DNA of 63,746 nucleotides, counting the filler, from Craspedostauros australis (lineage: Eukaryota), in assembly GCA_030167865.1 (NCBI GenBank). It is 9 parts of 9 records of this genome, joined end to end, with 100 filler letters (N's around TTAATTAATTAA, not from the genome) between each part and the next. Parts side by side here need not be neighbours in the genome. Positions count along the whole stretch, not along the records: positions 44,460 to 54,574 come from JALAGF010003403.1; 8 more parts are not named here. One strand, written 5' to 3'. The notes beneath the pieces were generated by a model. The model saw only the letters and a program-made list of their open reading frames with translations, was not told the origin of the DNA and made no database searches. Position numbers and translations under genes: made by a program. Each line of letters begins with the position of its first letter. Within the stretch, counting starts at the first letter, position 1. This document shows positions 19,550 through 63,746 of the stretch, piece after piece.

Positions 19550-21166
19550 ATGCCTCATTCCTCTGACACCTTCATGCTCACAATTTCAAATCCATCCGGA
19601 TCCAAATCCAGCCCACAATCACACACAATCACCCCGCAAGCGCACTCCCCTATCGCTCACAGTCACGTAAGAAGCTCATCAGAACTGCACAGCGAAAACC
19701 AGAAGCGAAAGCAGAAAGTCGAAAACCGAGCAACCGCCAATTCCATCCACCCGACCTGCACCAACCCACATCAACCAACAGCAATCCACATCAACGACGA
19801 CAACAACGCCGCCATGATGATGTTCACACCAACTTCCACACAATACAAGCACAGCAACACCATAGTCACCACATCCGACAACGATGTCTTCTTTCCAGTC
19901 GACAGCGCAACCATGACGATGAACATGACCACCGCCATGAACATGAACGGCATGGTGCGCAACCAGAAGAGGAAATCCCATCATGATCACGACGAGGATG
20001 TCGGCCCGGATCCCATCCAGTACACAGGAATGCGCATCGTCAACGAGGTTCGATTGGAGGACACGTTCGGCCAATGCCGCAACTCCAACGCCAACGCAGA
20101 AATCGGCGCCACCATGGACAACGACTGCACGTGCGACGCTTCGTGCGGTTCGGCAGTCCCAATGCATGAAGTCGAGACCTTCCTGCGATCGCTGTTCCGA
20201 GAAGACGCGTACCACCGCAGTCCCGCATCCGTTGCAACCGACGGGTCAACCAACACCAGCCCTCCGCAAGGTCGAAGCGTCCACGTCGAATGCAACAACG
20301 AGCCGATTGACGCATTCACTGATGTCCGTCATTTCTTGGTGGACATGGAGGCGGGTGTCAACAGCAATGCCAGCAACATCAGCAGCAGCAGCAACAGCAG
20401 CAGCATCAGCAACAGCGGAAACGACCATTGCCGTGACGGCGACGCGAGTCTGATCGGATTCCATGCCGACATGGACATGTTCAATTCCCATCATTCCTTG
20501 CTGTGCTCCACATCTGCACCATCGTCGACTTCGATGACATCGGCGACATCCCCACCTCCATCCAAGATACGAAGAGTGATCAGCGACACGAGAATCTCGC
20601 CGACATCCACCAAGGCTGCGCCCTTTGCACCATTCCACAACCACCACAACGCAGCATCACCAATCAAATTCCGCAAGTACCAAGCTGACCAGTGGGAGGC
20701 ACGATACCACGAGCTCATCCAGTACCGCGAGACGCACGGTCATTGCCTCGTCGATTCCAACACGGACCGCACCCTGTCCCACTGGATCAAGCGACAGCGT
20801 TGCCAGTACAAGCTGAAGCAGGACGGCAATCACACCACGCTGACCGACGAACGGCAGAGCAAGCTGGAGTCCCTGGGTTTCGTGTGGGATTCGCACGAGG
20901 TTGCCTGGGAGTACCGGTACCAGGACCTGCTCGCCTTCAAGGCCAGAACCGGTCACACCAACGTGCCCACGGTGTACAGCAACAACCCGTCGCTGGGCAT
21001 CTGGGTGAAGGGACAGCGGCGGCAGTACCGCCTGCACAGCAGCGGGCAACGATCCACGCTGACGGCGAAGAGGATCAACCGGCTGCGCGACGTCGACTTC
21101 CAGTGGGTGTCACCATCCATGGTGAACCGCGCGCCGTTCCCCACACGAGTCGGCCTCGCAGCGTGA
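19550..21166 (+). CDS. HA-domain protein C (up to 538 aa; alternative start 19814 in GCCGCCATG context)
   Basis: Two HA repeats: QWEARYHELIQYRETHGHCLV...HWIKRQR...LGFVWDS and AWEYRYQDLLAFKARTGHTNVP...LGIWVKGQRRQY...VDFQW. Confidence 0.87.
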   Translation: MPHSSDTFMLTISNPSGSKSSPQSHTITPQAHSPIAHSHVRSSSELHSENQKRKQKVENRATANSIHPTCTNPHQPTAIHINDDNNAAMMMFTPTSTQYKHSNTIVTTSDNDVFFPVDSATMTMNMTTAMNMNGMVRNQKRKSHHDHDEDVGPDPIQYTGMRIVNEVRLEDTFGQCRNSNANAEIGATMDNDCTCDASCGSAVPMHEVETFLRSLFREDAYHRSPASVATDGSTNTSPPQGRSVHVECNNEPIDAFTDVRHFLVDMEAGVNSNASNISSSSNSSSISNSGNDHCRDGDASLIGFHADMDMFNSHHSLLCSTSAPSSTSMTSATSPPPSKIRRVISDTRISPTSTKAAPFAPFHNHHNAASPIKFRKYQADQWEARYHELIQYRETHGHCLVDSNTDRTLSHWIKRQRCQYKLKQDGNHTTLTDERQSKLESLGFVWDSHEVAWEYRYQDLLAFKARTGHTNVPTVYSNNPSLGIWVKGQRRQYRLHSSGQRSTLTAKRINRLRDVDFQWVSPSMVNRAPFPTRVGLAA

Positions 21167-46006: not shown

Positions 46007-47248
46007 AGTGTAGAAGAGAAACAAAGCTACTGAAATGCGCCATGAGATGGCAAGAGAGAGAGAGAGAGAGAGCAAGATGATGATACAGATGAAAGCAACC
46101 ATGGGCATGCATATGATCATGGTGTGCTACTATGGATTTTGCTTGCTATTGAATTGGGGTTGAGAGGAGACAATATGATTGATCCCACAGTTCAAAACGG
46201 TACGATCTAACAACAACTTAGATTACTAATAACTCTGGATTCCCAACAAGTATTGGTTGATTGGTGATGCCGTCCACACACATTGAGCCTAAGATGGCTA
46301 TACTCGATGTGCCTTGTCTTTTAATCAATTAATACTGCATTTGGTACCGCGGTTTAAATATTAGCTCAAACTAGTATTCCCATTAGTCGTGTTAAGATTT
46401 AGTCTAGTTAGTCAAATGCACGACTGCTCAGAATGTTTGAGCGGGATTGAAGCGTGACTCGATGTCGGTGGGATGGGGTCCCACGGAGTCTCTCCCCACG
46501 AATCGTGCTCGACTTAGGACGAAATCGCTCGTCTGACCAATTTGGGGATTGAGCGATTGTGCCATCCCACACCACTTATGGGTGTAACATAGGTTGTCCT
46601 GGATGGACAAACGTACCAGACCGTTGAATGAACATCATTCCCCAAAAGCGATCGGAAGAGAGTGAACAACAAACACTCTCCGGCCATCACGAAAATGATG
46701 TCTCCTCCCTCGAATGGCAACATCGGCACCGCGATGAATGCACGTGGGAGACTCAACGCTCCGCTATGCTACTACTAATAGAGATGATGCAGATCCAACT
46801 ACAATGGATGCTGCTCATCAACTGCTCACAATCCTTTTGAAAGTCTCATTTGGATTCGTTACAGCTTTAAAGACTAAGAAACACACTCACACACAAACTC
46901 ACCAACCTACTGCACTACCACGGATTGATCACCCTTCGGCGTACAGTAAGTTACCCTCGTTTTCTATATCGTTCTATCATTAAACAAGCCTCCCAGAGCA
47001 CTCAACTCCGCTCTGCGAGCCACAAATGTGCCTGGATCAGGGTGCGCTGGTCTCGTTTTTGTTCGACGAGATTTCAGGACCGTACGTACCGCACTTTGTG
47101 GTGTACTCTGTGCAGCTCTCCTCCATGCTACTCTACTCTACTATGCAGTCTACGCACAGTGTGAGGTCGCAATCTCAACTGGATTAACCACCTTGAACCA
47201 TATTTACCGCAACCTTTAGGCTTATTCGTTTCTCTTGACTGATGCTGT

Positions 47249-47345
47249 TGTCACAGTCTGGCCTATGTCCGTCTGTGCTCGTCTCTCTCACCACAGGAAC
47301 ATCTCATAAATTCTGTGTTTCCCCAATTCACAGTCTCCTCTCACA
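47249..47345 (+). repeat. 5' LTR (97 bp)
   Basis: TGTCACAGTC...CCTCTCACA, identical to 53551..53647. Confidence 0.97.
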
Positions 47346-47357
47346 GGTTTTCGAGCC
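47346..47357 (+). promoter_or_regulatory. Putative primer-binding site GGTTTTCGAGCC
   Basis: Abuts the 5' LTR; resembles the half-tRNAiMet-type PBS GGTTATGAGCC but differs from it. Confidence 0.5.
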
Positions 47358-47519
47358 TTCTTTCTGACCTCACGGTCCTATACGCGTTTTCACTGCCGTT
47401 CCACCCAGCCCAGCGCCGTCATTGGTCTGATCGCTGGTGTTCGGGCTGTGTTTCGCACACACACAATTCAAAAAAAAAAAAAAAACACACGCTCTTCCGT
47501 CTTTTTCGCACTCGCCACC

Positions 47520-49421
47520 ATGACGCGCAACAACAACTCTCCCAGCACTGGCGGGTCCAACGCTGATGGCCATGTTGATGGCGCACCTCCGGCTGATGGT
47601 GTACCACAGGGTGATGCCGATAACGGCTTACAGCCTCCGCCAAATGCAGTGGAGTTCACGCCTGGCGCTCTGGTTCGGCCCATCCTCCGCACGGCGTTCT
47701 TCTCTCCGCGCGGCATTGAAGTCATCGTGAAGTACTTCCAGTACTGTGAAGATGAAGATGCCGTCTGGGGGCGCCTGCACCATCTACTGTCGATCGAGGA
47801 TGATCGTCGCACGTCTACGGCGCTTCAGCGCTTTGGCGACGTTGACCCCGCTGATCTAAACGAACTCAAGACTCTACGTGGGTGGTTTCAGAAGTCCGCC
47901 CTACCTACTGCCTTCCAGTGGGGCGACTTCAGCTCGACCATGTACCGCGGCGGCATTCCCATGGGTCCGTCCGAGGGCGGTGCTGCTGCTGCTCCCCAAG
48001 ACAGCGCCCACGATGATTCCAACGTGGGTGCGACTACGCATGACGCCTCAGGTCACACCCTGGGCAATACGGGTGATGCGGCAGGTGATCCTCACAGCTT
48101 CGTGACTGATCCAGACCTCGCTGCCATGTTCAATGCGGGTGTTGACACTCCTGACACGCGCACGCCGCGTGCGCGTCCTGCGCGGTTCGCTCCAAGCCCG
48201 GTCGTACCAACGCGAACCGGAGGGTGTCCTGACTTCTACGAGGACATCCGGCGTGAAGAAGCCGCCAACCGTGCCAAGTACAAGAACACCATGCCGTATG
48301 GCGCCGACCTTGGGCCGCACCCCACTTGGAAGGTGTGGGCCAGTGCTCGAGTTCACATTGATTTGCGCGGTTTTTCCGATGCATACATCCCCAAGCTCTC
48401 CTCGCTTGAACCGCATGCCATCTGCACTTGGTACAACCATTACCAGCAGGTGGCTTCGCAGTTTGGCGTTCATGTCATTCCGCTCTCCATGTACCGTGTG
48501 GATTGCGTTGTCTTCCCGTCCTCACTTCCAAGCGCCACCATTGCGGCGATCAACAATGCGCACTTCCTCAAGCTCACCACACCCGGGACTCTTGAGATAG
48601 CTCCTGACACGCCTCTGGCTTTGCATAGCCAGGCGTTCCTCCAAGAACGTGGCCACGAGATGTTGAGTGCCTTCAACTTTCTGCACCGCGTGCTGCAATA
48701 CACCGTCACCGCACCCGCGGCTGCTGGTCTCCCAGTGCCGCCCAAATTTGTTGCTGCCAATGGCATCATTGGGTTTGCGACGGCGCTGATGGCATTCCTG
48801 AACCAGCACGGCAGTGCACATCAGTACAGTCCGCGTCGAGCGGCTGTGCACTTCCTTGATGAAGTCGGACGTGCAGGGCATAATGTCCGGCAGTTCCGTG
48901 AGATGGTCCTAGCTGTCCCAGAGCACGCGCCGCTCCCTGACGGATTACACGTTGGGGAACTGGCTGTCAAGATGGCGGATGCATCGGACTCGGGACGCAC
49001 GGCCCACGCTGTCACGCGCTCTCAACGCAAGGGCGTGCGGTTTGACGATGAGCGCTCAGAAGGTCGCAAGTCCCGCAGCCCTGAGCGTTCCCGTGGACGT
49101 CGCGACGATGACGGCGAGGGACGACGAGTTTTTCGCCAGCCGGCGCCCGGCGCAGTGTGCGATGCATGTGGTCGGCGCGGCCATCATGCGGAAAGTTGCA
49201 TCTTCCTTGCACGTCACAGGCTCCTTGCGCAGTATTGCGAGAAGCATGCGGAGCTGGCCGACAAGCTCAGCATCGCTCTGCGTCGCATCGGCAAGAACGA
49301 TGCCCGGCGCGCGATCGCAAGGCTCCTCAAGGTTGACGACGGCGATGCCGAATGGTCCAGTGAGCCGTCTGACGAGGAACTCCTTGTTGCCATGATGCAC
49401 TTGGAACAGGATTTTCCATAA
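47520..49421 (+). CDS. gag: Retrotransposon Gag (~633 aa)
   Basis: GCCACCATG start; CX2CX4HX4C knuckle CDACGRRGHHAESC near the C-terminus; TAA at 49419-49421. Confidence 0.88.
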   Translation: MTRNNNSPSTGGSNADGHVDGAPPADGVPQGDADNGLQPPPNAVEFTPGALVRPILRTAFFSPRGIEVIVKYFQYCEDEDAVWGRLHHLLSIEDDRRTSTALQRFGDVDPADLNELKTLRGWFQKSALPTAFQWGDFSSTMYRGGIPMGPSEGGAAAAPQDSAHDDSNVGATTHDASGHTLGNTGDAAGDPHSFVTDPDLAAMFNAGVDTPDTRTPRARPARFAPSPVVPTRTGGCPDFYEDIRREEAANRAKYKNTMPYGADLGPHPTWKVWASARVHIDLRGFSDAYIPKLSSLEPHAICTWYNHYQQVASQFGVHVIPLSMYRVDCVVFPSSLPSATIAAINNAHFLKLTTPGTLEIAPDTPLALHSQAFLQERGHEMLSAFNFLHRVLQYTVTAPAAAGLPVPPKFVAANGIIGFATALMAFLNQHGSAHQYSPRRAAVHFLDEVGRAGHNVRQFREMVLAVPEHAPLPDGLHVGELAVKMADASDSGRTAHAVTRSQRKGVRFDDERSEGRKSRSPERSRGRRDDDGEGRRVFRQPAPGAVCDACGRRGHHAESCIFLARHRLLAQYCEKHAELADKLSIALRRIGKNDARRAIARLLKVDDGDAEWSSEPSDEELLVAMMHLEQDFP

Positions 49422-49456
49422 GCCGGCGAGCAGGGGCACCTCCTCGTGAACGGCTT
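49409..49456 (+). promoter_or_regulatory. Putative -1 programmed ribosomal frameshift signal (G GAT TTT plus bulged hairpin)
   Basis: Heptamer is in gag phase, one codon before the stop; pol lies in the -1 frame, open from 49373; hairpin spans 49420-49456. Confidence 0.75.
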
Positions 49457-52400
49457 CAGCACATGGATAGCGCGGCAGGCGCAGGGAATGTCACTACAGG
49501 TGACTCGCTGCCGGTGCTTGGCAACAACCCTGCGCAACGCGACGCTGTGGTACAGCGTCAAGCCCGTGACTGGACCATGGTGGACGCTTCTTGCATGTCC
49601 AACGTATACCACGCACATTCGGTGTGTGCGGATGGTTGCGACACGCCGCTATTGCATCAAGTGGTCCCCGTCGGGCAGTTCAATCACATTGTGGGACAAC
49701 AGTGTGATCTGGGCGCCAACATCTCCGTGACCAATGTCAAGACTATGCTCACCGACTGCCAAGCTCTCGCACACCCGATCAACCTATCAGGTGCGGATGC
49801 AAGATCCACAGCCATGATGTGCTCACACCGGGGCACCTTTCCCTTTCGGTTGGATGATGGCGACGTCATTCCGATTCCGATGTTCTTCTGTGAGCATGTT
49901 TCCGCCACATTGCTGTCGCCGCAGCTCATATGTGAACACTCCCAAGTTTTTCACACATTCGACGTTGTGTGCCGAGATCGGGATGATCCGCATGTCCGGT
50001 TTTACACACAGGATGCTGTGGCATACAAGCGTGCTTCCATGGTACGGATGAATGATCTCTTCTTCTTCTCCACCATGTACTCTGCACGAAGACATGTTGC
50101 TCACACCGTAAACGGCGCATTGTCATATGAACTGTGGCATCAACGCCTTGGACACCCTGGTCATCGACAGATGGTGCAGTTGCCTAAACATTCAATCGGG
50201 CTACCGTCTTCTGTGGCCCAAGAACGACACCCCTTACACTCTTGTGACACGTGCCTGGACGCGCATGCACAACGTCAACCAAGAGGTGGCACATCCAATG
50301 TGGACCATCTGCTGAATGGGTCGCGATTTCACCTGGACTTCGGGTACATGCGTGCCAGTTCGGCCCAGTACCACAAGGTCAAGCACATGCCTCCTGTGGT
50401 GGCGTCCTTTGATGGGTGCACTGCGTACCTTGTCATTGTGGATGCGGTATCCCGGTACACTTGGGTGTTTCCAACCGATGGCAAGCGTGCTCCCGTTGCG
50501 CTTGTACAGGAGCATCTGCAGCGATTTGGGCTCAAGGCAGGGTACCGTGCTCTGCGCGTTGACCATGGTGGCGAACTATTCACTTCAAAAGAGTTCGCGC
50601 GAATGGTTCGGGATGCTGGGTACGTCCTAGAGCCCACTGGTTCCGGTGTGCATCACCGCAATGGAAAGGTCGAACGCCTCAATCGGGTACTTGCGGTCAT
50701 GGTGCGGTCCATGCTGTACGGAGCCGGCCTGGAACCCAAGTTCTGGTCTGCCGCAGTTGTCCACTCTGCGTATATTCGCAATCGGATGTGGCACTCTGCC
50801 ATTGGGCGTACGCCTTACGAGGCGCTCAACGGCACGAAACCAGACATTGCGCATTTGCGTGTGTTTGGGGCACTGGTCACCGTGCGCAAACCTGACAAGC
50901 CTACACGCAAGCTTGACGTCCACACGTACCGTGGCGTATTCCTGGGATTTCTCGGGGACGGCGTCAACATCCGCTACTTTGACACGACATCCAACACAGT
51001 CAAGATCGGGGGATCCGTGGTGTTCGATGAAGCGCACTTCATGAGTGACAAGCGTCCTCCTTCCGCGCAGCTTCTGTTCGAACTCGGCGCCGGCCTTTTG
51101 AACGTTGACGACGGGTCTGTCTCTGTCAAGGATGACGAAGGCAACGAGGTGTCCGCGAACGTGCCACCTGCGTGTCAACCAACGTTGGTGCGTGACAAGG
51201 CCCCTCGTACGTGTCAGGATGCTACCGTCGTACCTCTACCACTTCGGGAGGGACTGATCATGCCCACTGGTGCTTCCGCCGCTGCCGTCTCTACAGATGT
51301 CAGCGTGCGCGACGTCATGCTCCTTGATCTCTCAAGTCATCCGTTCGAAACGGCGTTCGATGTGGACATCCCACTGTTCGGGCAACATCCGCAGCTCGGG
51401 ATTATCTGGAACACTGACAACTCGCGCGGCCGTCTTCGACTCCTCGATATTCCGTCTGGACATCGAGCTCGGCGAATTCCTCAATGGCGGTCTCGGCTAC
51501 GGCACGCATACCTACTTGCCGTGAATGGAGTGGAAGTGTACAACGTCCGTGGGCTCGAACAGGCAGTCTCCATGGCTCGTGCAGATGGGAATCCGCATGC
51601 CGTCATGACTTTCGCCTTCGACGCCGTCAGAAACACACTGTCCGAAAAAGGGCTCATACAGCTCTACTTCGATCAGTGGAGGGATATCCGGGACCTGTGT
51701 CGGAGGGCGAAGCAGATGCAACAAAATGATGGAGTACATGACACACGCACCGCTTTGAAGCTCACAAGACGGACTCTTCGCAAGCAAGATGACTGGGAAC
51801 TTTGGCGACAGTCGGAGCACAAACAGTTGCAACAATACGCGGACCAAGGCATGTTTGGTACACCGGTTGCAGCGCGACCGGGTGACCAGGTGTTCCATTG
51901 GGTGTGGGTCTACGTTCTCAAGCAGAATCCCACCGAGACGCGGCGCAAGGCGCGAGCAGTCTGTGATGGTTCGCCGCGCGCTGGCAAAGCCGTGATTACC
52001 GGACACACATTTACTGCCACTCCAGATGCCACGGACTTCAGGCTATTTCTTGCCATCGCAGCCATGGAGAACAAATGTGTATATGGTGCAGACGTCTCCA
52101 ATGCATTTGCTGAAGCACCATGCGGGGCTCAGAAGTACTTCATGCATGTGGACCAACCGTATTCTGACTGGTGGGAGTCGCAGGGCAATTCACCGATACC
52201 TCAAGGTCACGTCATACCCATTCAGAAGAACCTACAAGGACATCCCGAGGCGCCACGACAATGGGCGCGTCACATTGATGCGCAGTTACAACGAATGGGG
52301 TTCGTTCCTACCACGCACGCTCCGTGCCTCTACCGTGCGCGATATCAAGGTCAGGATGTGCTATTTCTTCGACAAGTCGATGACTTTGCAATCGCGTGTG

Positions 52401-53479
52401 CGACGGAGGACACGTACGCTCGCATATGCAACGAACTGGACTCGTTCCTCTTTGTTCCCATGAAGCGATTTGGTGTGCTTCGGCACTTCAATGGCACCGA
52501 CCTCATTCAGACCAGCACGCACATCTCCATGCACAATGGTACATATCTGAGCAAGGTGTTTGAGCGCCATGCGTGGCGTGATATGCATGGGGTACGAACA
52601 CCTATGGCGGTCGACAACAGCCACATCAAGATGTTGGACGGTGAGACGCCTCTCGATGCAAAAGGCCTCAGGGATGCGCAGCAGAACTTTGGATCATACC
52701 GTGCTGCCATAGGAGAGTTGATCTGGCCCATGGTGACGTGCCGGCCGGACATCGCTTTTCCCGTGGTGAAGCTTGCACAATTCTCTGCTGCTCCAGGCCT
52801 CGCACACTTTGCTGCCGTCAAGCGTGTATTCAGATATCTCTTCGCCACCCGCGAACAAGGCATCACTTTTCATCGCACGAAGGTGGTGGCGTATCTTCCG
52901 CACGTGGCTGTCCCGCTGCGTGTTTCGGAGCCGCATGATGCACGCCACGTTCATCCAGATGAAGACCCCTCCGTGGTGTACGGGTACGCTGACAGCGACT
53001 GGGCGTCTGACTCAAGGCATCGACGCTCCGTGTCTAGCATGGCGTTCAAACTCGCCGGTGGCGCGGTGGCGTGGAAAGCAAGGGTTCAGCCGACTGTCGC
53101 AATGTCCAGCACTGAAGCAGAGCTTCTGTGTGCTTCCGATGCGGGTCGAATGGCGTTGTGCCTCCGCAGCACGCTCGATGAGCTCGGCGTGCTTCAGTCT
53201 CATGCCACGGTGCTTTATGAAGACAATCGAGGGGCTCTTATGATCGCCAACGCAGGTCAGCCCTCGCGTCGAACCCGCCACGTGGAAATTCGACATTTTG
53301 CCATTCAGCAATGGGTGGAGAATGCGATGGTGGTATTTAGAGACATCGATTCCGCGGTCAATGCTGGTGACATCGGTACCAAGCAAACTACGCCGCCGCT
53401 CTTTGTTCGGCATTGGGACAATCTATCTGGGCGCAACGTTCCTCCGTGGTCGGCAGCTCTTGCACCGGCTCATGTATGA
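49409..53479 (+). CDS. pol: Retrotransposon Pol (PR-IN-[PDZ-like]-RT-RNase H), -1 frame relative to gag; first ATG 49463
   Basis: DLGAN protease motif; LWHQRLGH...CDTC; integrase D-D-E (FHLDFG, RVDHGGE, GKVERLNR); RT ADVSNAF, LQGHPEAPRQW, RQVDD; RNase H YADSDWA, SSTEAE, YEDN, DIGTK. No internal stops. Confidence 0.95.
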   Translation, partial: GFSISRRAGAPPRERLQHMDSAAGAGNVTTGDSLPVLGNNPAQRDAVVQRQARDWTMVDASCMSNVYHAHSVCADGCDTPLLHQVVPVGQFNHIVGQQCDLGANISVTNVKTMLTDCQALAHPINLSGADARSTAMMCSHRGTFPFRLDDGDVIPIPMFFCEHVSATLLSPQLICEHSQVFHTFDVVCRDRDDPHVRFYTQDAVAYKRASMVRMNDLFFFSTMYSARRHVAHTVNGALSYELWHQRLGHPGHRQMVQLPKHSIGLPSSVAQERHPLHSCDTCLDAHAQRQPRGGTSNVDHLLNGSRFHLDFGYMRASSAQYHKVKHMPPVVASFDGCTAYLVIVDAVSRYTWVFPTDGKRAPVALVQEHLQRFGLKAGYRALRVDHGGELFTSKEFARMVRDAGYVLEPTGSGVHHRNGKVERLNRVLAVMVRSMLYGAGLEPKFWSAAVVHSAYIRNRMWHSAIGRTPYEALNGTKPDIAHLRVFGALVTVRKPDKPTRKLDVHTYRGVFLGFLGDGVNIRYFDTTSNTVKIGGSVVFDEAHFMSDKRPPSAQLLFELGAGLLNVDDGSVSVKDDEGNEVSANVPPACQPTLVRDKAPRTCQDATVVPLPLREGLIMPTGASAAAVSTDVSVRDVMLLDLSSHPFETAFDVDIPLFGQHPQLGIIWNTDNSRGRLRLLDIPSGHRARRIPQWRSRLRHAYLLAVNGVEVYNVRGLEQAVSMARADGNPHAVMTFAFDAVRNTLSEKGLIQLYFDQWRDIRDLCRRAKQMQQNDGVHDTRTALKLTRRTLRKQDDWELWRQSEHKQLQQYADQGMFGTPVAARPGDQVFHWVWVYVLKQNPTETRRKARAVCDGSPRAGKAVITGHTFTATPDATDFRLFLAIAAMENKCVYGADVSNAFAEAPCGAQKYFMHVDQPYSDWWESQGNSPIPQGHVIPIQKNLQGHPEAPRQWARHIDAQLQRMGFVPTTHAPCLYRARYQGQDVLFLRQVDDFAIACATEDTYARICNELDSFLFVPMKRFGVLRHFNGTDLIQTSTHISMHNGTYLSKVFERHAWRDMHGVRTPMAVDNSHIKMLDGETPLDAKGLRDAQQNFGSYRAAIGELIWPMVTCRPDIAFPVVKLAQFSAAPGLAHFAAVKRVFRYLFATREQGITFHRTKVVAYLPHVAVPLRVSEPHDARHVHPDEDPSVVYGYADSDWASDSRHRRSVSSMAFKLAGGAVAWKARVQPTVAMSSTEAELLCASDAGRMALCLRSTLDELGVLQSHATVLYEDNRGALMIANAGQPSRRTRHVEIRHFAIQQWVENAMVVFRDIDSAVNAGDIGTKQTTPPLFVRHWDNLSGRNVPPWSAALAPAHV

Positions 53480-53543
53480 TTTGCGTATTTAGTTTTAGTT
53501 AATTAGTGTTCCGATCGAGTGGCCCTCTGGACCTCGCGATCGT

Positions 53544-53550
53544 GGGGGGG
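53544..53550 (+). promoter_or_regulatory. Polypurine tract (G7)
   Basis: Lies directly 5' of the 3' LTR. Confidence 0.8.
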
Positions 53551-53647
53551 TGTCACAGTCTGGCCTATGTCCGTCTGTGCTCGTCTCTCTCACCACAGGA
53601 ACATCTCATAAATTCTGTGTTTCCCCAATTCACAGTCTCCTCTCACA
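53551..53647 (+). repeat. 3' LTR (97 bp)
   Basis: Identical to the 5' LTR; followed by GCTGT. Confidence 0.97.
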
Positions 53648-54674
53648 GCTGTATCCATGTCTCACATGAGTCCTCTACAACAAACGTATCTGCAGAGTTA
53701 GGATTCGGGCGTAGACAGCGCGAATCGGTGGAGGATGCCTCTTGGATCTACCGGCTTTGGGATAGCCGTGTGATGCAGTTCAAGAGAAGTGTACTGATTG
53801 AAGAGTTGTTACTGTAACGATGAGTAGAAGAGTGCTTTGTAGCTAATCCTTGTCTGTTTATTATGAGTTAGCTTGTAGTGTTAGTAGGGTGAAGAAACGA
53901 TGCCACACAGCTTGGCGAGACCCTGCACTGATGTACTTGGTTCAGTGCTTGAGGGTAGATGATCATAACAGTGCCTTGTTCTCCATACATGTAGATACAC
54001 TGCAGTGTAGATCATGACTCATGTTAGTGACAGTCATGAAGCAGTGGCTGTGACTGGAGCTGACCCTCGGATTCCATTGCTCGAGTTGAAGCAGGTTGGA
54101 TACACATGTCAAGACTACAGCAGTAGTGCAGTATTCATCAGCATGAAGGGAATCGAGGAATGTTGTAGTAAGAGGATCTGAGGAGCATATAGTTCCCAAG
54201 GTGGGGTGTGTGTCAGGAATCGGGTGTCATGAAACACGTGATTGCCGCACCTCCCAAGAGTGAGAAGACAAGTTCCATGAAACACTATATTACCGCACCT
54301 CCCACTGTGACATTGTGAACACCAAAATGTGAGGTACATGACAGGGCGAATGGTATCCTGAGAAGAATGGTGAATGACAAGTGTGGATCGGATGATGATG
54401 ACTGTGAAGGGTAATGCAATCATCCAATACACAGTTGCATGTCACACGGGGCTGCAATGATGCGCTCGTGACCACCATCAGGTACAAGCAAATACAGCCC
54501 TCATGTAATGACGAACAAAGAACCGAGGAGTCGGAATATCCCATTACCACGAAGTACAAAAAGGACCGTGAGAGNNNNNNNNNNNNNNNNNNNNNNNNNN
54601 NNNNNNNNNNNNNNNNNNTTAATTAATTAANNNNNNNNNNNNNNNNNNNNNNNNNNNNNNNNNNNNNNNNNNNN

Positions 54675-57600
54675 TACTTCGAAAAGATCGTCCCTGCTGG
54701 CGTCCGACCCATCGATCTGGTCATCAAGAGCACGTGCGATCAAACCATCAGCTACCGCATCTCTGGACCCGAAGTCATGCATACCGGGGTTGGCGATTAT
54801 CACGACAGCCGATTCGACCATCTGGAGTTGTCTGCCAAGTTCTCAATCCTGGAAGGTACCGAATATCTGCACGTATGCCACTACTCGATAAGTCTATATC
54901 CAACAGAAGACTTTGAGTCTGAGTACATCACAAGCACACCGTTGACTTACACCATCGCCGTCGTCCTGGTCTTCATGGTGACTTCGGTAGCCTTCATCCT
55001 GTATGATTATCTCGTTCAGAACCGGCAGAAGACCGTGATGCATTCAGCTGCCCGAACGAATGCCATCGTCACATCTCTCTTTCCCGCACAGTTCCGCGAT
55101 CGATTGATCAAGGATCATGATGCCGCAGTGAAGGACACAGAGAGGCACAAGGTTGAAGGCAGAGACCAGATCGCGCCATCTCCCGTCTCGAATCTGTTCA
55201 CAAGAGGCAAAGCCATTCTCCGAGGAGCATCAAGAAACTCAAGAAACACAAGCAACGCGGCATCATCAGCCCGCAACCATGCTAGTGCCCCAAGGAAGAT
55301 CACGAGACGGATGGAAAGCTTCGCTGACTACGAGGCCGAAAAGACGCGGCTGCTTCTATCGGAGCCCATCGCAGATCTGTTCCCGTCCGTCACAGTCCTA
55401 TTCGCTGACATCGCCGGCTTCACAGCGTGGGCCAGCGTGAGGGAGCCGTCCCAAGTCTTCACTCTCCTTGAGCAGATCTACAGCACGTTCGACGCCATCG
55501 CGAAGCGAAGAGGCATCTTCAAGGTCGAAACGATCGGAGATTGCTATGTTGCTGCGTGCGGACTTCCGAATCCTCGTGACGATCATGCCGTGGCCATGCT
55601 GCGGTTTGCACAAGAGTGTCTACATCAGATGAGTGGCTGTGTGCAATCGTTGGAAGTGCTTCTGGGGCCTGACACCGGCGATCTGACCATGAGGTTCGGT
55701 ATCCATTCTGGTCCTGTCACTGCTGGCGTGCTGCGCGGCGAGAAGACTCGCTTCCAGCTGTTCGGTGACACCGTCAACATGGCTGCAAGGATGGAGAGCA
55801 CTGGTCTTGAAAATCGCATCCATGTGTCCGCTGACACAGCCAAGCTGCTTGCAGCGAATGGCAAGCCACACTGGACTGTGGCAAGAGACGGCCTCGTCGA
55901 AATCAAGGGCAAGGGCAAGGTCCAGACGTACTGGGCATTCGATCGCAACCATCATAGCTTGCACGGATCCATCCAGATGATGGCCTCCGCAATGCAAGTT
56001 GTCGATGGCTCCATCCAAATCGAAAGCAACGGCATCGATCCGACTACGAGCATGCAGACGCTGGCCACTGCCAAACAAGACACTGTTCGCCCCGGCGCAT
56101 CATGCCCGATGACAACTGCAACTTCCATCTCAATGGCAGGGATCATAACCACACAACCGACCTCCGGGTTAACCACTCCCAGCGTAGTAGGTGCGGTGCC
56201 ACCACTGACAGCATCGCCGGTCTGTCACAGCAAACATACACACAGCAAGCAGGAACAACAAGAAAGGAAGATGGAGCGACTGGTGGAGTGGAATGCAGAG
56301 GTTCTTCAAGGACTACTGCAGAAGGTGGTGGCGATGCGAGATCCACGATCCTCTTCTTCTTCTTCGTCGTCGTCGTTCACAAGGAGCCGACCGAACGCAT
56401 CAGGTGATCATTCAGATCCGGTGAACTTCCTTGCAGTGACACCTGGCGATGACAAGCCTGATCATACCGTCATAGATGAAGTGAAGGAAATCATCGAGCT
56501 TCCGGACAGGGCCTCCAAGTACAAGTGCGACCCAGCGACTGTGAAGTTGGATCCCACCGTCATATCCGAGCTGCGCGAATATGTCACCGCCGTCTCGCAA
56601 ATGTACCGACACAACTCCTTCCATTGCTTCGAGCATGCCTCTCACGTCGTGCAATCGGTGACGAAGTTGCTGTCACGTGTCGTGACGCCCGACAAACGAA
56701 TCGACTGCATCAGCAGCGCCGACACCAACGGCGACAATCGCACCGTGGAGTGGGCGTACCAGCAGCAGAGCATGGACAATGCGAACAACACTGGCGCGAT
56801 GACATCGACATCGTTGTCACACAAGGCATCGACCAGCGCGGGAAGGGCCAAGAAGCTGCACGAGTACACGTACGGGATCACATCGGATCCATTGACTCAG
56901 TTCGCCTGTGCGTTCTCCGCCCTGATCCATGATGTGGATCACTGCGGCGTTCCAAACACGGTGCTCGTCAAGGAGGGCGTGGGCATCGCCACCCACTACA
57001 AGAACAAGAGCGTCGCCGAGCAAAACTCCGTCGATCTCGCATGGGGACTCCTAAGTCATGACAACTTTGCGAATCTCCGACGATGCATCTGTGCGACGCA
57101 GTCCGACCTCGAACGGTTCCGACAGCTCGTCGTAAACTCCGTCATGGCGACAGATATCGCTGACAAGGATCTCGGGGCCTTGCGCAAGGCACGGTGGGAA
57201 CGGGCCTTCGCGGAACAGGACGACGAGGAGAGCGGCCACAACCGCACAGACAGCACAACTGACCATTCCGACACTGGTAGGACCGGCGACGGGGGACAGG
57301 ACAAGACCTCGCAAGGCGATCAGCAACAAGGCCGCACGAGCGCCAAGCAGCGCCGACTGAATCGCCTGATGGCACAGAACCGCAAGGCCACCATCGTCAT
57401 CGAGCATCTCATCCAGGCGTCGGATGTGTCGCACACGATGCAGCACTGGCACGTGTACNTGAAGTGGAACGAACGACTGTTCCATGAGATGTACGCAGCC
57501 TACCTGGCAGGCAGATTTGGAGAAGATGGTGCCAATCCGGCAGAGGGGTGGTATGCCGGCGAGCTGTCATTCTTCGACTTCTACCTCATCCCACTGGCCA

Positions 57601-57733
57601 AGAAGCTGTCCACCTGTGGAGTCTTCGGAGTTGCTTCGGACGAGTACCTGAACTACGCCACGGCCAATCGTCAGGAATGGGAGCGCAAGGGGAAGGACGT
57701 GGTGCAGATGTACATGTCGAAGTATCAGACGCA
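54675..57733 (+). CDS. Receptor-type class III nucleotidyl cyclase fused to a class I PDE domain (3' part; spans the whole contig)
   Basis: TM segment YTIAVVLVFMVTSVAFILYD; cyclase LFADIAGFTAW, FKVETIGDCY, RFQLFGDTVNMAARMES; PDE FHCFEHASHV, HDVDH, VMATD, QASDVSH. One ambiguous base at 57459; stop codon not reached. Confidence 0.92.
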
Positions 57734-57833
57734 NNNNNNNNNNNNNNNNNNNNNNNNNNNNNNNNNNNNNNNNNNNNTTAATTAATTAANNNNNNNNNNN
57801 NNNNNNNNNNNNNNNNNNNNNNNNNNNNNNNNN

Positions 57834-61642: not shown

Positions 61643-62480
61643 TTACTTCTGCACACCCATCTCCTCGTCGCTCTCGCCAACGCTGTCGTTCTCCTCGTCC
61701 TGGTTCAGCTTGTTCATGGCGGCAGTCTCCATGCGAAGAGCAGACTCGAAGATGCGAGCCTCATCGTCGTTGTTGCACGAATTGATCTCCTCGCGGAGTC
61801 CCTTGATGTTAGACAGGATGCGCTCGCGACGGACGGAGTAAGACTCGGTCTGTGCGGCCAAAGCCTTCTGGAGCTCGAGGTACTCGCGTGGGACGGCGGT
61901 GGAACCGGCCTCACCGACAAGCACGTTGGTTCCCAAGTGCATGTTGCGGTTGCTCTGGTGGTCTGGCTTCATACCGGCGGCGCGCTCCTCCGGGGTGCCG
62001 ATGTACACCTCATCGAGCTGGAAGCCAGAGACGGCCTTGTGAATGGAAGCGAGAACCCAGGCACCGGAGCAGATACCAGTGGCCTCCAACAACAGGCAGA
62101 ACTGGAGGAAGATGTATACGATCGGGTTGGAAAGGAAGGCGATTGGGAAGACGGATGCAACCAGCTGCCATGTGATGGAGGCGATGATGGTGGTGATGAG
62201 GGCTCCGAGAAGTCCGGTGTTGAAGAATTCCTGGGTGCTGTCGGAGACTCCGAAGATGTTCTCGCCAGTTCCGACCTCGACATCAAGAGTGGTGACACGG
62301 GCGATGATGAAGAAGCACATGGTGACGCAGATCTGACGTCCGATCATGAATCCTGGAAGGTTGCGTCCGTCACCGCGGAAGAGGAGCTCGCAGGTTTTGC
62401 GGGCCATTGGGTGGTCTCCACGATCCTCCTTTGGAAGCTTGGCGACGGCGAAGAAGGCGATCTGCATACCCTCGAGCATA
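61643..62480 (-). CDS. SIT: Silicon transporter (diatom SIT), C-terminal half, 5'-truncated
   Basis: MLEGMQIAFFAVAKLP and FMIGRQICV (the GXQ motifs), TGLLGALITTIIASITWQLVAS, FQLDEVYIGTPEER, then a coiled-coil-like C-terminal tail. Confidence 0.95.
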
Positions 62481-62580
62481 NNNNNNNNNNNNNNNNNNNN
62501 NNNNNNNNNNNNNNNNNNNNNNNNTTAATTAATTAANNNNNNNNNNNNNNNNNNNNNNNNNNNNNNNNNNNNNNNNNNNN

Positions 62581-63746
62581 CGCAGGAGCACGTGCATGCA
62601 TCCTCCCAGGATGTAGTGCAACGCCATGTCGGGAATTGGATCGTTGTTGTATTCCCCCAACAATCGGTTGATGACCGGTCCATTGGCGAGAATCTCTTTG
62701 ATGGACCAGAAGTTGTCGCACAGCGTGGTTGCTGCCGTGCACACCCACAGGTGTCGCTCTCCTGCGTCGTCATCATCTGAGTACAAGCGCATGCCTGCCG
62801 TCATTACAGCGTTGTGGATGAGTTGTCGTTGCATGATCTCCACAGTTGCCGTTAGTCGTGGAATCGCATCGTTTCTGAAGTTGATGCCATGTCTGGTGAA
62901 TTCCATGATCGGCGCGAATGCGATGTCATATGGATAGACGACCTCTTCATTTGGATTGAATTGATCGTCTTCTACCAATCCGTTGCTGCGATCTTCGTTG
63001 AAGATACCCGTTCTGTTGTTCCCCGCTGCTGGAGGGGGCGGCGCCGCGCCGTTCGTCTCGTCTCCAGAGACGCCGTGGTTGTCTTGATCTGCGCCGTTCT
63101 CGTTGGTATTGGCATCCTCTGCGCTCATGGCCTCTTCGATGTTGATGTCAATGGCCTCGTTGCCCATCTCGGCTCCGTCGCCGTATGGACCGATCAGGTC
63201 GTGCGCGTTGAAGCAGCATTCGTAGCTCACTTCGCGTCTTGGATCCACCTCGTGGATGATGGGCTCCTCGCTGAGCCACTCCGGGACGATCTCATCGTCC
63301 TGTACTTCGTCGTCACTTTTGATGCACTCGAAGTTTTTGAAGAAGGAGTCGTCAATGTAGTTGTCAGACACCAACATGCAGAGCGGCATGTCCTTTGCTG
63401 AGAGTACCATCTTGTGTCCGCTCTTGTCATGTCCTTGTGTTGCTGTGTTGGCCTGCTCGTCAGCCTTCTTCTTCTCGTTGAACTTCTTCTTTCGGCGCTC
63501 TGCCTCGCAGTGTCCAAAGATGCCACAGTAGTTGCACTTCCTGTTGAAGCCGTTTCCCTTGTTGCGGTTGTTGTTGCGCTTTCCGTTCATTTTGTTGTTG
63601 TTGTTTTTCTTGTTGTTCGATTTCTTACGCTCGGGGCAATCCGCAGATCTGTGACCATACACACCACAGTTGTGGCAGGTCCCCTTGAAGTTACTGGTGC
63701 TCGTGAAGCCGGTGTCATTGCTCTTCATGTTGCTGTCTTGGAAGTC
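62581..63746 (-). mobile_element. Fragment of a second retroelement: Gag-like ORF with two zinc knuckles
   Basis: Frame is open across the whole contig; FKGTCHNCGVYGHRSADC and degenerate FNRKCNYCGIFGHCEAER; both ends truncated. Confidence 0.7.

What the first reader, a model, noticed from the sequence alone, without database searches (positions are those of the whole stretch)
49370..49465. Virus-like -1 ribosomal frameshift cassette linking gag and pol in a Copia element
Seen: gag ends CAG GAT TTT CCA TAA, which places G_GAT_TTT (49409-49415) in phase. Pol is in the -1 frame, and that frame is open only from 49373 (TGA at 49370), so the overlap is short and contains the heptamer. A bulged hairpin starts 4-5 nt downstream: AAGCCG 49420-25 pairs with CGGCTT 49451-56; GAA bulge; GCGAG pairs with CTCGT; C-C mismatch; AGG pairs with CCT; GGCA loop. 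Known: G_GAU_UUU followed by a bulged stem-loop is the -1 site of Red clover necrotic mosaic virus, whereas Copia elements typically use one ORF, splicing, +1 shifting (Ty1) or readthrough. Inference: this lineage makes Gag-Pol by -1 frameshifting. I cannot check whether this is already described for CoDi elements.
Basis: partly seen in the sequence, partly recalled or inferred. Interest (0 to 1): 0.8.

Follow-up and report, generated by a model that had tools for sequence, protein, structure and literature searches.

The report
Frameshift signal in diatom Copia retrotransposon
A recently inserted jumping gene in a diatom-like genome appears to make its Gag-Pol protein by a programmed one-base backward slip of the ribosome, using a slip site and RNA hairpin that distant relatives keep and that resemble those of some plant RNA viruses.

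Summary
G_GAT_TTT (49409-15) is in gag phase, and a bulged hairpin (49420-56) is the minimum-energy fold. The element (47249-53647) is an intact Ty1/copia retrotransposon with identical 97-bp LTRs and a 5-bp target duplication.

The decisive evidence is comparative. All five closest metagenome relatives that hold upstream DNA also have pol in -1. Their Gag is only 23-27% identical to the window's. Each has an in-phase heptamer at the same place: GGATTTT in four and AAATTTT in one. Each also has a hairpin of the same architecture but a different inner-stem sequence: 89.5% of cells are paired, 8 of 15 pairs show double changes, and 0 of 500 shuffles reach this.

A covariance model built from four sequences found the other two, and nothing else significant in 405 kb. 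Among 44 Gag representatives whose match reaches the profile end, 21 end in D/N-F plus 0-1 residue. A sister clade instead has a single in-frame TGA.

Programmed -1 frameshifting is well supported computationally (about 0.85) but untested experimentally. The signal mirrors umbravirus sites. I found no published description for diatom Copia elements. It is a new member of a known kind.

The parts
47244..47248 (+). 5' target-site duplication GCTGT
   Evidence: The same 5 bases flank the 3' LTR at 53648-53652 (alignment; repeat).
47249..47345 (+). 5' LTR, 97 bp, TG...CA
   Evidence: 100% identical to 53551-53647.
47520..49421 (+). gag ORF (633 aa from the first ATG; frame 0)
   Evidence: No Pfam hit. 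Homologous to the upstream ORFs of L001-L003 at 23-27% identity. 331 relatives at E<=0.001 in the profile search.
49158..49199 (+). CCHC zinc knuckle of Gag (CX2CX4HX4C)
   Evidence: Regex on the translation. One knuckle lies at the same relative place in the Gags of L001, L002 and L003.
49373..49421 (+). gag/pol overlap (pol in -1)
   Evidence: Stop-to-stop ORFs 47310-49421 and 49373-53479.
49409..49415 (+). slippery heptamer G_GAT_TTT in gag phase
   Evidence: Conserved in L001, L002, L003 and L004 (GGATTTT) and L006 (AAATTTT). Mean pairwise identity is 0.90, against 0.32 for the 60 nt upstream.
49419..49421 (+). gag stop TAA, 3 nt after the heptamer, at the base of the hairpin
   Evidence: A stop sits at the same place in L001, L002 and L006.
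49420..49456 (+). stimulatory hairpin: outer stem 49420-25/49451-56, 3' bulge GAA 49448-50, inner stem 49426-34/49439-47 with one C-C mismatch, loop 49435-38
   Evidence: MFE and centroid fold. Covariation. Covariance-model hits in relatives.
49373..53479 (+). pol ORF (PR-IN-RT-RH); as Gag-Pol it would be entered at 49415
   Evidence: Pfam: gag_pre-integrs 50105-50257, rve 50423-50620, SH3_retrovirus 50831-51040, RVT_2 51902-52606. Alignment with 12 relatives.
53544..53550 (+). polypurine tract (G7) abutting the 3' LTR
   Evidence: Read from the alignment. The function is inferred.
53551..53647 (+). 3' LTR
53648..53652 (+). 3' target-site duplication GCTGT

Best explanation
The element is an intact, recently inserted Ty1/copia LTR retrotransposon in a diatom-like genome.

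Most ribosomes translating its genomic RNA end Gag at TAA 49419-21. A fraction pause with GAU in the P site and UUU in the A site, because the hairpin starting 4-6 nt downstream resists unwinding. Both tRNAs then slip back one base, from GAU to GGA and from UUU to UUU. Translation continues in the -1 frame as ...LEQDF-SISRRAGAPP..., giving a Gag-Pol fusion. This sets a low Pol:Gag ratio and brings Pol into the particle.

The stop codon 3 nt after the site, at the base of the stem, may add to the effect, as it does in Pea enation mosaic virus RNA2.

Shown here: the ORF layout, the heptamer phase, the fold, and their conservation with covariation in relatives. Inferred: that ribosomes actually shift, the efficiency, and any role of the stop codon and the GAA bulge.
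For: (1) Anatomy. pol is -1 with a 49-nt overlap. A single in-phase heptamer is followed by a hairpin that is the MFE fold.

(2) The copy is young and whole. It has 100% identical LTRs, a 5-bp target duplication and full PR-IN-RT-RH. A disabling frameshift is therefore unlikely.

(3) Relatives. One search kept 80 metagenome loci, and 45 of them matched the PR-IN probe. The 5 that are closest in pol (40-47% identity) and also hold upstream DNA are L001, L002, L003, L004 and L006. All 5 have pol in -1 behind a homologous Gag: 23-27% identical to the window's for L001-L003, while the short upstream pieces of L004 and L006 match relatives' Gags, not the window's. All 5 carry an in-phase heptamer at the same spot: GGATTTT in 4 and canonical AAATTTT in 1.

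(4) Selection is at the nucleotide level. The codon before GAT always ends in G although it encodes Q, S, P, P or A. It ends in A before AAT.

(5) Hairpin covariation. The architecture is constant while the inner stems differ. 89.5% of 86 cells are paired, 8 of 15 pairs have changes on both sides, 0 of 500 shuffles reach any measure, and slid controls give 15-51% paired. RNAalifold predicts the same fold, with 7 of 14 pairs compensatory.

(6) Specificity. Covariance model R1 was built from 4 sequences. It found the 2 left out, L004 (E 5e-8) and L006 (E 1e-3), at their junctions. It found nothing else below E 2 in 405,709 bases.

(7) No conserved pol start codon. The first Met in the pol frame after the heptamer is at residue 19, 113, 112, 33 or 23, and there is none within 130 residues in L006. 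In L006, and apparently in L001, it lies at or beyond the protease motif.

(8) Phylogeny. All six -1 elements fall in one 18-row clade (SH-aLRT 99). They are spread over three of its four subclades.

(9) Gag tails. 21 of 44 Gag representatives whose match reaches the profile end finish in [DN]F plus 0-1 residue. Five more finish in DFxx(A/P)G..., which is the 5' strand of the stem read in the gag frame.

(10) The heptamer is functional elsewhere. GGAUUUU is an experimentally proven -1 site in PEMV2, and related umbraviruses show the same GGAUUUU/AAAUUUU alternation.
Against: There is no RNA, ribosome-profiling or protein evidence.

The hairpin is small and its stability is only modestly better than shuffles. 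z is -2.6 in the window, -1.6 to -4.6 in four relatives, and +0.3 in L004.

Only six independent sequences were available. The pair counts were made on an alignment fitted to the model, and four of its rows defined the structure.

Coding could explain part of the conservation. GAT TTT encodes a D-F motif that is also present in the Gag tail of the readthrough clade. The outer stem and bulge read as S-R ... E-R-L in the pol frame.

L003 and L004 lack the stop 3 nt after the site.

The spacer to the first possible pair is 4 nt in the window.
Confidence: 0.85

Rival explanations
1. The frame change is a mutation or assembly error of this one copy. The family normally has a single gag-pol ORF.
For: Only one copy lies in the window. 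The genome and reads could not be examined.
Against: 5 of 5 close relatives from independent metagenome contigs have the same -1 layout, with the heptamer at the same place. The LTRs are identical. The listed Pol hits that fall in the window's clade are 1196-1432 aa, that is pol-only, not about 2000 aa.
Confidence: 0.02
2. Pol is translated on its own. This could be internal initiation at ATG 49463 just after the hairpin, or termination-reinitiation after the gag stop. The hairpin would then serve that process or RNA packaging.
For: An ATG in the pol frame lies 7 nt after the hairpin in the window. The gag stop and the hairpin are adjacent.
Against: The ATG is not conserved. The first pol-frame Met is at residue 19, 113, 112, 33 or 23, or is absent within 130 residues. 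It lies beyond the protease motif in L006, and apparently in L001. This model does not explain an in-phase slippery heptamer kept at the nucleotide level.
Confidence: 0.05
3. The heptamer and stem are conserved because of protein coding (Gag D-F tail; S-R...E-R-L at the start of the pol frame). The frames are joined at the RNA level by splicing or polymerase slippage on the T run.
For: A D-F motif also occurs in the Gag tails of the readthrough clade. The outer stem is the best-conserved part.
Against: Synonymous positions are fixed: GAT rather than GAC, TTT rather than TTC, and a preceding wobble G whatever the residue. The readthrough clade uses GAC TTC or GAT TTC. Inner-stem peptides are not conserved, yet pairing is kept by double changes. 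In L002 the outer-stem change turns S to T and L to D but keeps the pair. T4 is short for transcriptional slippage; this last point rests on general knowledge, not a call. No conserved splice-site-like GT..AG was apparent in the junction sequences printed.
Confidence: 0.05

Closest known systems
Umbravirus -1 frameshift element (Pea enation mosaic virus RNA2; Gao & Simon 2016, PMC4737148, passages read; Atkins et al. 2016 review, PMC5009743, passages read)
   Same: The heptamer G_GAU_UUU is the same, and some relatives use AAAUUUU instead. The 0-frame stop lies 3 nt after the site at the base of the stem. The stem starts with G:C pairs and can include the last base(s) of the stop codon. The hairpin is bulged. 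The spacer is about 5 nt.
   Different: The viral element is 88-95 nt with two large bulges, and its lower bulge pairs with the 3' terminal hairpin. Here the hairpin is 37-40 nt with a 3-nt bulge, and no distant partner could be tested. The virus is a plant RNA virus making its RdRp. This is a retrotransposon making Gag-Pol. The similarity is convergent, not homologous.
Dianthovirus (RCNMV) and luteovirus (BYDV) -1 frameshift elements
   Same: Both use -1 frameshifting with a bulged stem-loop, and the 0-frame stop is adjacent to the slip site.
   Different: In these viruses the stop is immediately after the site. Long-distance pairing of the bulge with the 3' end is required. I did not verify RCNMV's heptamer in the passages I read.
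gag-pol -1 frameshifting of retroviruses and animal Ty3/gypsy-type elements
   Same: The logic is the same: pol in -1, a heptamer in the overlap, and a 3' structure that sets the Gag:Gag-Pol ratio. The 2003 survey summarised in the review found pol in -1 in 28 of 51 animal retroelements.
   Different: The superfamily differs: this element has the Ty1/copia domain order PR-IN-RT-RH. The heptamer is not a strict X_XXY_YYZ.
Known Ty1/copia expression strategies: Ty1 +1 frameshift, Tca2 stop-codon strategy, copia and BARE1/EVD splicing
   Same: The superfamily is the same, and so is the need for excess Gag (introduction of Oberlin et al. 2017, PMC5580714, passages read).
   Different: None of these is a -1 slip on a heptamer with a hairpin.
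CoDi elements of diatoms (Maumus et al. 2009, PMC2806351; passages read)
   Same: These are Ty1/copia elements in diatoms. They have TG/CA LTR ends, young copies and CCHC in some Gags. [quoted passage not shown]
   Different: The passages I read describe no recoding signal. The per-family table (Additional file 1) could not be opened. LTRs of 153-844 bp are reported there, against 97 bp here. Placement of this element in CoDi1-7 was not tested.

Membership tests
Ty1/copia LTR retrotransposon (Pseudoviridae) | pol domain order PR - IN - RT - RNase H | tested here: met
   Pfam hits along P0002 run in this order: gag_pre-integrs 245-295, rve 351-416, SH3_retrovirus 487-556, RVT_2 844-1078. A protease-like QCDxGAN motif lies upstream and the RNase H region downstream in the alignment.
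Ty1/copia LTR retrotransposon (Pseudoviridae) | Direct LTRs with TG..CA ends and a short target-site duplication | tested here: met
   The 97-bp LTRs are 100% identical, and the 5-bp GCTGT lies on both sides.
Ty1/copia LTR retrotransposon (Pseudoviridae) | Gag with a nucleocapsid zinc knuckle upstream of pol | tested here: met
   One CX2CX4HX4C lies at 49158-49199. L001-L003 have one at the same relative place. No Pfam Gag family matched.
Ty1/copia LTR retrotransposon (Pseudoviridae) | Primer-binding site complementary to a host tRNA next to the 5' LTR | not tested
   The host genome and its tRNAs are not available.
CoDi groups (Copia of diatoms, Maumus 2009) | Diatom host | tested here: met
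   The window holds a Silic_transp gene piece (E 8e-108), several HA-domain genes and a cyclase/PDE fusion. One Pol relative comes from a Skeletonema record and two from MMETSP transcripts. The host species is not known.
CoDi groups (Copia of diatoms, Maumus 2009) | RT/pol groups with one of CoDi1-CoDi7 in a tree | not testable with these tools
   No named CoDi sequence appeared, and none could be fetched.
Programmed -1 ribosomal frameshift site | Downstream ORF in -1, overlapping the upstream ORF | tested here: met
   The same holds in 5 of 5 close relatives.
Programmed -1 ribosomal frameshift site | Slippery heptamer in the 0-frame phase inside the overlap, allowing A- and P-site re-pairing | tested here: met
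   G_GAT_TTT is at 49409-15. The same heptamer is functional in PEMV2.
Programmed -1 ribosomal frameshift site | Stable 3' structure a few nt downstream | tested here: met
   The hairpin at 49420-56 folds at -18.9 kcal/mol with z -2.58. The spacer is 4-6 nt. This is in silico only.
Programmed -1 ribosomal frameshift site | Signal conserved in relatives, with covariation | tested here: met
Programmed -1 ribosomal frameshift site | Transframe product made | not testable with these tools
   No sequencing run was listed. No proteomics is available.
Umbra-/diantho-/luteovirus-type frameshift element | GGAUUUU-type or AAAUUUU heptamer with the 0-frame stop 0-3 nt downstream at the base of the stem | tested here: met
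   The stop is 3 nt after the site in 4 of 6 sequences (window, L001, L002, L006). It is later in L003 and far downstream in L004.
Umbra-/diantho-/luteovirus-type frameshift element | Large (about 90 nt) hairpin with large asymmetric bulge loops | tested here: not met
   The hairpin here is 37-40 nt with a 3-nt 3' bulge. It works like these elements but is not a member.
Umbra-/diantho-/luteovirus-type frameshift element | [quoted passage not shown] | not tested
   A 3-nt bulge is too short for a meaningful search.

The most novel reading that the evidence does not exclude
A whole clade of marine diatom Copia elements has converged on the frameshift cassette of umbra- and dianthoviruses. The cassette is G_GAU_UUU or A_AAU_UUU, a stop codon at the foot of a 3'-bulged hairpin, and possibly a contribution from the conserved GAA bulge. 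The cassette would have been built on an ancestral Gag D-F tail. The sister clade, with the same Gag tail, instead expresses Pol by reading through a single UGA. That would be a recoding-mode switch (readthrough versus -1 frameshift) within one retroelement lineage, traceable step by step.
Probability: 0.35. Interest if true: 0.65.

Novelty: new member of a known kind. Interest (0 to 1): 0.5.

Why it matters
Ty1/copia elements are usually described as using one ORF, splicing, +1 shifting or a stop-codon strategy to limit Pol. A conserved -1 signal supported by covariation in a diatom clade adds a fifth strategy for this superfamily.

It also gives an annotation rule for such elements: join gag and pol at the heptamer rather than call two genes or a pseudogene.

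It offers a compact (about 50 nt), natural frameshift cassette from a diatom that can be tested in Phaeodactylum reporters.

The -1 clade and the in-frame-UGA sister clade together form a natural comparison for how recoding signals are exchanged in evolution. The likeness to umbravirus signals suggests that few solutions exist for this heptamer.

Tried and rejected
Own genome: none is held, so other copies in the host could not be compared.

Sequencing runs: none was listed and no RNA holder was listed.

Gag word-based search: no hits. The HMMER profile search later found 331.

Pattern scans for heptamer plus stem: 79 viral-contig loci and at least 119 prokaryote-contig loci matched the loose pattern. 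Judged by their record names and titles they are phage and bacterial contigs. I took them as chance matches and did not examine them further.

Protein-guided scan of viral contigs: no relative found.

Covariance-model hit in L075 (E 2.3): rejected, because one long ORF runs through it.

L067/L068 (E 4.6): these are decayed copies. They still show ...SDFL-stop with GGATTTT, but were not counted as evidence for the hairpin.

L023: its apparent -1 layout is a copy-specific frame break, because its relative L024 reads the same stretch in one frame.

MAFFT alignment of all six junctions misaligned the two with longer loops. I used the model-guided alignment instead.

Literature: no description of a -1 signal in CoDi or diatom Copia elements turned up in searches. 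Gao et al. 2003 (RNA 9:1422) is not held.

Earlier findings of this scan: nothing.


Full report
**What is in the window.**
A 703-codon open frame (47310-49421) ends CAG GAT TTT CCA TAA. A 1368-codon open frame (49373-53479) lies in the -1 frame and is closed upstream by TGA 49370-72. The overlap is 49 nt. G_GAT_TTT (49409-15) sits in it in the phase needed for tandem slippage. It is the only in-phase heptamer of the N_NNY_YYZ form found in the overlap plus the 30 nt before it, and one of three GGATTTT on both strands of the window. It survives in a 105-nt fold whose overall z is only -1.45.

**The element.**
Two 97-bp direct repeats (47249-47345 and 53551-53647) are 100% identical. They begin TG and end CA, and are flanked by the same five bases, GCTGT. 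A G7 run abuts the 3' repeat. The second ORF carries gag_pre-integrs, rve, the retroviral SH3-like domain and RVT_2 in that order, which is the Ty1/copia order. The first ORF has no Pfam match but contains one CCHC knuckle about 85 residues from its end. This is an intact and very young Copia insertion.

Other genes in the window include a silicon-transporter piece (E 8e-108), several helicase-associated-domain proteins and a guanylate cyclase/phosphodiesterase fusion. The host is therefore diatom-like. No whole genome is held for the window and no sequencing run was listed, so other copies and reads could not be examined.

**Relatives.**
A word-based search with the PR-IN part of Pol gave 139 proteins at E<=0.001, of which 120 were listed. 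The closest (45-54% identity) are 1245-1432 aa and start just before the protease motif. They are pol-only ORFs, not 2000-aa fusions. A second search with the RT-RH part gave the same picture.

A protein-guided scan of metagenome contigs returned 80 loci of 98 confirmed. A PR-IN probe matched 45 of them, and I determined the frames around each junction. Five loci are closest in pol (40-47% identity) and also hold DNA upstream: L001, L002, L003, L004 and L006. All five have pol in the -1 frame behind a long ORF that runs into a short overlap.

For L001-L003 these upstream ORFs are true Gag homologues of the window's, at 23-27% identity, and each has one CCHC knuckle at the same relative place. 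The short upstream pieces of L004 and L006 match relatives' Gags, not the window's directly.

In all five an in-phase heptamer lies at the equivalent spot: GGATTTT in L001, L002, L003 and L004, and the canonical AAATTTT in L006. A stop codon follows exactly 3 nt later in the window, L001, L002 and L006. It comes 5 codons after the heptamer in L003 and far downstream in L004.

Mean pairwise identity is 0.32 for the 60 nt before the heptamer, 0.90 for the heptamer, 0.53 for the spacer and 0.87 for the 5' strand of the outer stem.

**Nucleotide-level selection.**
GAT TTT encodes Asp-Phe, and a D-F motif also occurs in the Gag tails of more distant relatives. Coding alone could therefore keep some of these bases. 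It does not explain several facts:
- Asp is always GAT and Phe always TTT.
- The preceding codon always ends in G although it encodes Q, S, P, P or A.
- That base is A in the one element whose next codon is AAT.
- The distant relatives spell their D-F as GAC TTC or GAT TTC.

**The hairpin in relatives.**
Each of the six sequences folds into the same bipartite hairpin:
- an outer stem of 4-7 pairs, with core GCCG/CGGC (CCCG/CGGG in L002, GGCC/GGCC in L001);
- a 3-nt bulge on the 3' side (GAA in five, ACA in L001);
- an inner stem of 7-9 pairs whose sequence differs between elements.

Single-sequence z-scores are modest: -4.6, -2.3, -2.1, -1.7, -1.6 and +0.3.

I wrote the structure on an ungapped alignment of four sequences (A4) and built covariance model R1 from it. 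I then searched the window plus all 80 loci, 405,709 bases on both strands. The four training sequences scored 60-67 bits. The two sequences left out were found at their junctions: L004 at 38.3 bits (E 5e-8) and L006 at 23.1 bits (E 1e-3). Every other match had E above 2.

On the model-guided alignment of the six (A7):
- 89.5% of 86 cells form standard pairs.
- 8 of 15 pairs have a change on both sides.
- None of 500 shuffles reaches any of the five measures.
- Sliding the 3' partners by 1-3 columns gives 15-51% paired.

RNAalifold on the same alignment predicts the same fold, with 7 of 14 pairs compensatory.

Three caveats apply. There are only six sequences. The alignment is fitted to the model. 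Four of the rows defined the structure.

The pol-frame peptide across the inner stem is not conserved: RAGAPPR, SVIDLTD, TVQATTV, SFYHPQND. In L002 the outer-stem double change alters two residues non-conservatively yet keeps the pair. RNA-level selection is therefore the better explanation.

**How wide the feature is.**
In a quick maximum-likelihood tree of the PR-IN region (37 rows, SH-aLRT only; near-duplicates L008 and L017 and the distant L022 were left out), all six -1 elements fall in one 18-row clade (support 99). They are spread over three of its four subclades.

A profile of four Gags found 331 representatives at E<=0.001 in a 1.84-billion-protein library. From the best 150 I picked by hand the 44 whose match reaches profile position 600 or beyond (of 615). 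Their ends fall into four groups:
- 21 end in D/N-F plus 0 or 1 residue.
- 5 end DFxx(A/P)G..., which is the gag-frame reading of the 5' strand of the stem.
- 11 end in E.
- 7 end otherwise.

This is only a protein-level proxy. The DNA of these clusters could not be fetched.

**A sister strategy.**
Twelve more distant loci have a long upstream ORF in the same frame as pol, interrupted by one stop codon. These are L005, L007/L008, L010, L011, L015, L016/L017, L020, L021, L022 and L069. The relatives in this part of the family often carry a dUTPase domain in Pol. The stop is TGA in 11 of 12 loci and TAG in L022. It is preceded by GAA in 6. The upstream ORFs of L005, L007, L008 and L011 are detectably homologous to the Gags of the -1 clade. 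The nine included in the tree form a separate clade.

This looks like stop-codon readthrough. It means the family holds two recoding solutions at the same junction. An apparent -1 junction in L023 is a copy-specific break, because its relative L024 reads the same stretch in one frame.

**Rivals.**
- A private mutation or assembly error is excluded by the five independent relatives.
- Independent initiation of Pol is unlikely. The first pol-frame Met after the heptamer lies at residue 19, 113, 112, 33 or 23, or is absent within 130 residues. It falls beyond the protease motif in L006, and apparently in L001.
- Splicing or transcriptional slippage has no support in the sequence, but cannot be excluded without RNA data.

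**Comparison with what is known.**
The passages I read of Gao & Simon 2016 and of the Atkins et al. 2016 review describe the following:
- PEMV RNA2 shifts on G_GAU_UUU.
- Four other umbraviruses share that heptamer, while two use AAAUUUU.
- The 0-frame stop lies 0 or 3 nt after the site at the base of the stimulatory hairpin.
- Changing that stop to a sense codon lowers frameshifting by 72% in vitro.
- The base stem starts with G:C pairs that can include the last base of the stop.

Every one of these points has a counterpart here.

There are also differences. [quoted passage not shown] The element here is 37-40 nt with a 3-nt bulge. It therefore works like those elements but is not one of them.

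I did not see its heptamer.

Within retroelements, -1 frameshifting between gag and pol is common in animal elements. The usual list for Ty1/copia is +1 shifting, a stop-codon strategy and splicing.

For diatom CoDi elements, Maumus et al. [quoted passage not shown] They refer to Additional file 1, which I could not open. The 2003 survey by Gao et al. is not held. Five literature searches found no description of this signal. A prior record in those two unseen sources cannot be excluded.

**Verdict.**
The interpretation, programmed -1 ribosomal frameshifting, is well supported by comparative evidence but is not shown experimentally (confidence about 0.85). It is a new member of a known kind of recoding signal, in a superfamily and host group where I found no published description of it. 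It is interesting mainly for its conservation, its likeness to umbravirus signals and the readthrough sister clade. Interest 0.5.

Noticed in passing
L005:2088-2090, L007:5805-5807, L010:3194-3196, L011:3072-3074, L015:982-984, L016:3525-3527, L020:2949-2951, L021:5984-5986, L069:6470-6472 (also L008, L017; L022 has TAG): A sister clade of Copia elements has gag and pol in one frame, split by a single stop codon. The stop is TGA in 11 of 12 loci and is preceded by GAA in 6. This looks like a UGA-readthrough lineage. No conserved downstream structure was looked for beyond single MFE folds.
   Followed up: partly
proteins P0017, P0019-P0022 and others: Many of the more distant Pol relatives (about 1450-1730 aa) carry a dUTPase domain (PF00692). 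The window's element and its close relatives lack it.
   Followed up: no
window 47249-47345 and 53551-53647: The LTRs are only 97 bp. This is shorter than the 153-844 bp range reported for diatom CoDi families in Maumus 2009.
   Followed up: no
window about 47470-47485: A run of 16 A lies in the element's leader, between the 5' LTR and the gag ATG at 47520.
   Followed up: no
window 3367-4983 (-), 16045-17661 (+), 19550-21166 (+); also 3-1478 (-), 7784-9709 (-): There are several ORFs with helicase-associated (HA) domains. Three have the same length (538 aa), and two of those gave identical Pfam scores. This suggests recent duplications in both orientations.
   Followed up: no
window 61643-62479 (-) and 62529-63728 (-): One ORF matches the C-terminal half of the silicon transporter family (profile 274-509 of 513, E 8e-108). 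The neighbouring ORF on the same strand may be the rest of the gene, split by an intron or a frame change.
   Followed up: no
window 54777-57785 (+): A guanylate/adenylate cyclase and phosphodiesterase fusion gene begins about 1.1 kb downstream of the element's 3' LTR. The insertion therefore lies in its upstream region.
   Followed up: no
L067:77-116, L068:4375-4414: These are decayed copies with many stops, from a further lineage. They still end Gag with ...SDFL-stop on GGATTTT CTA TGA.
   Followed up: partly
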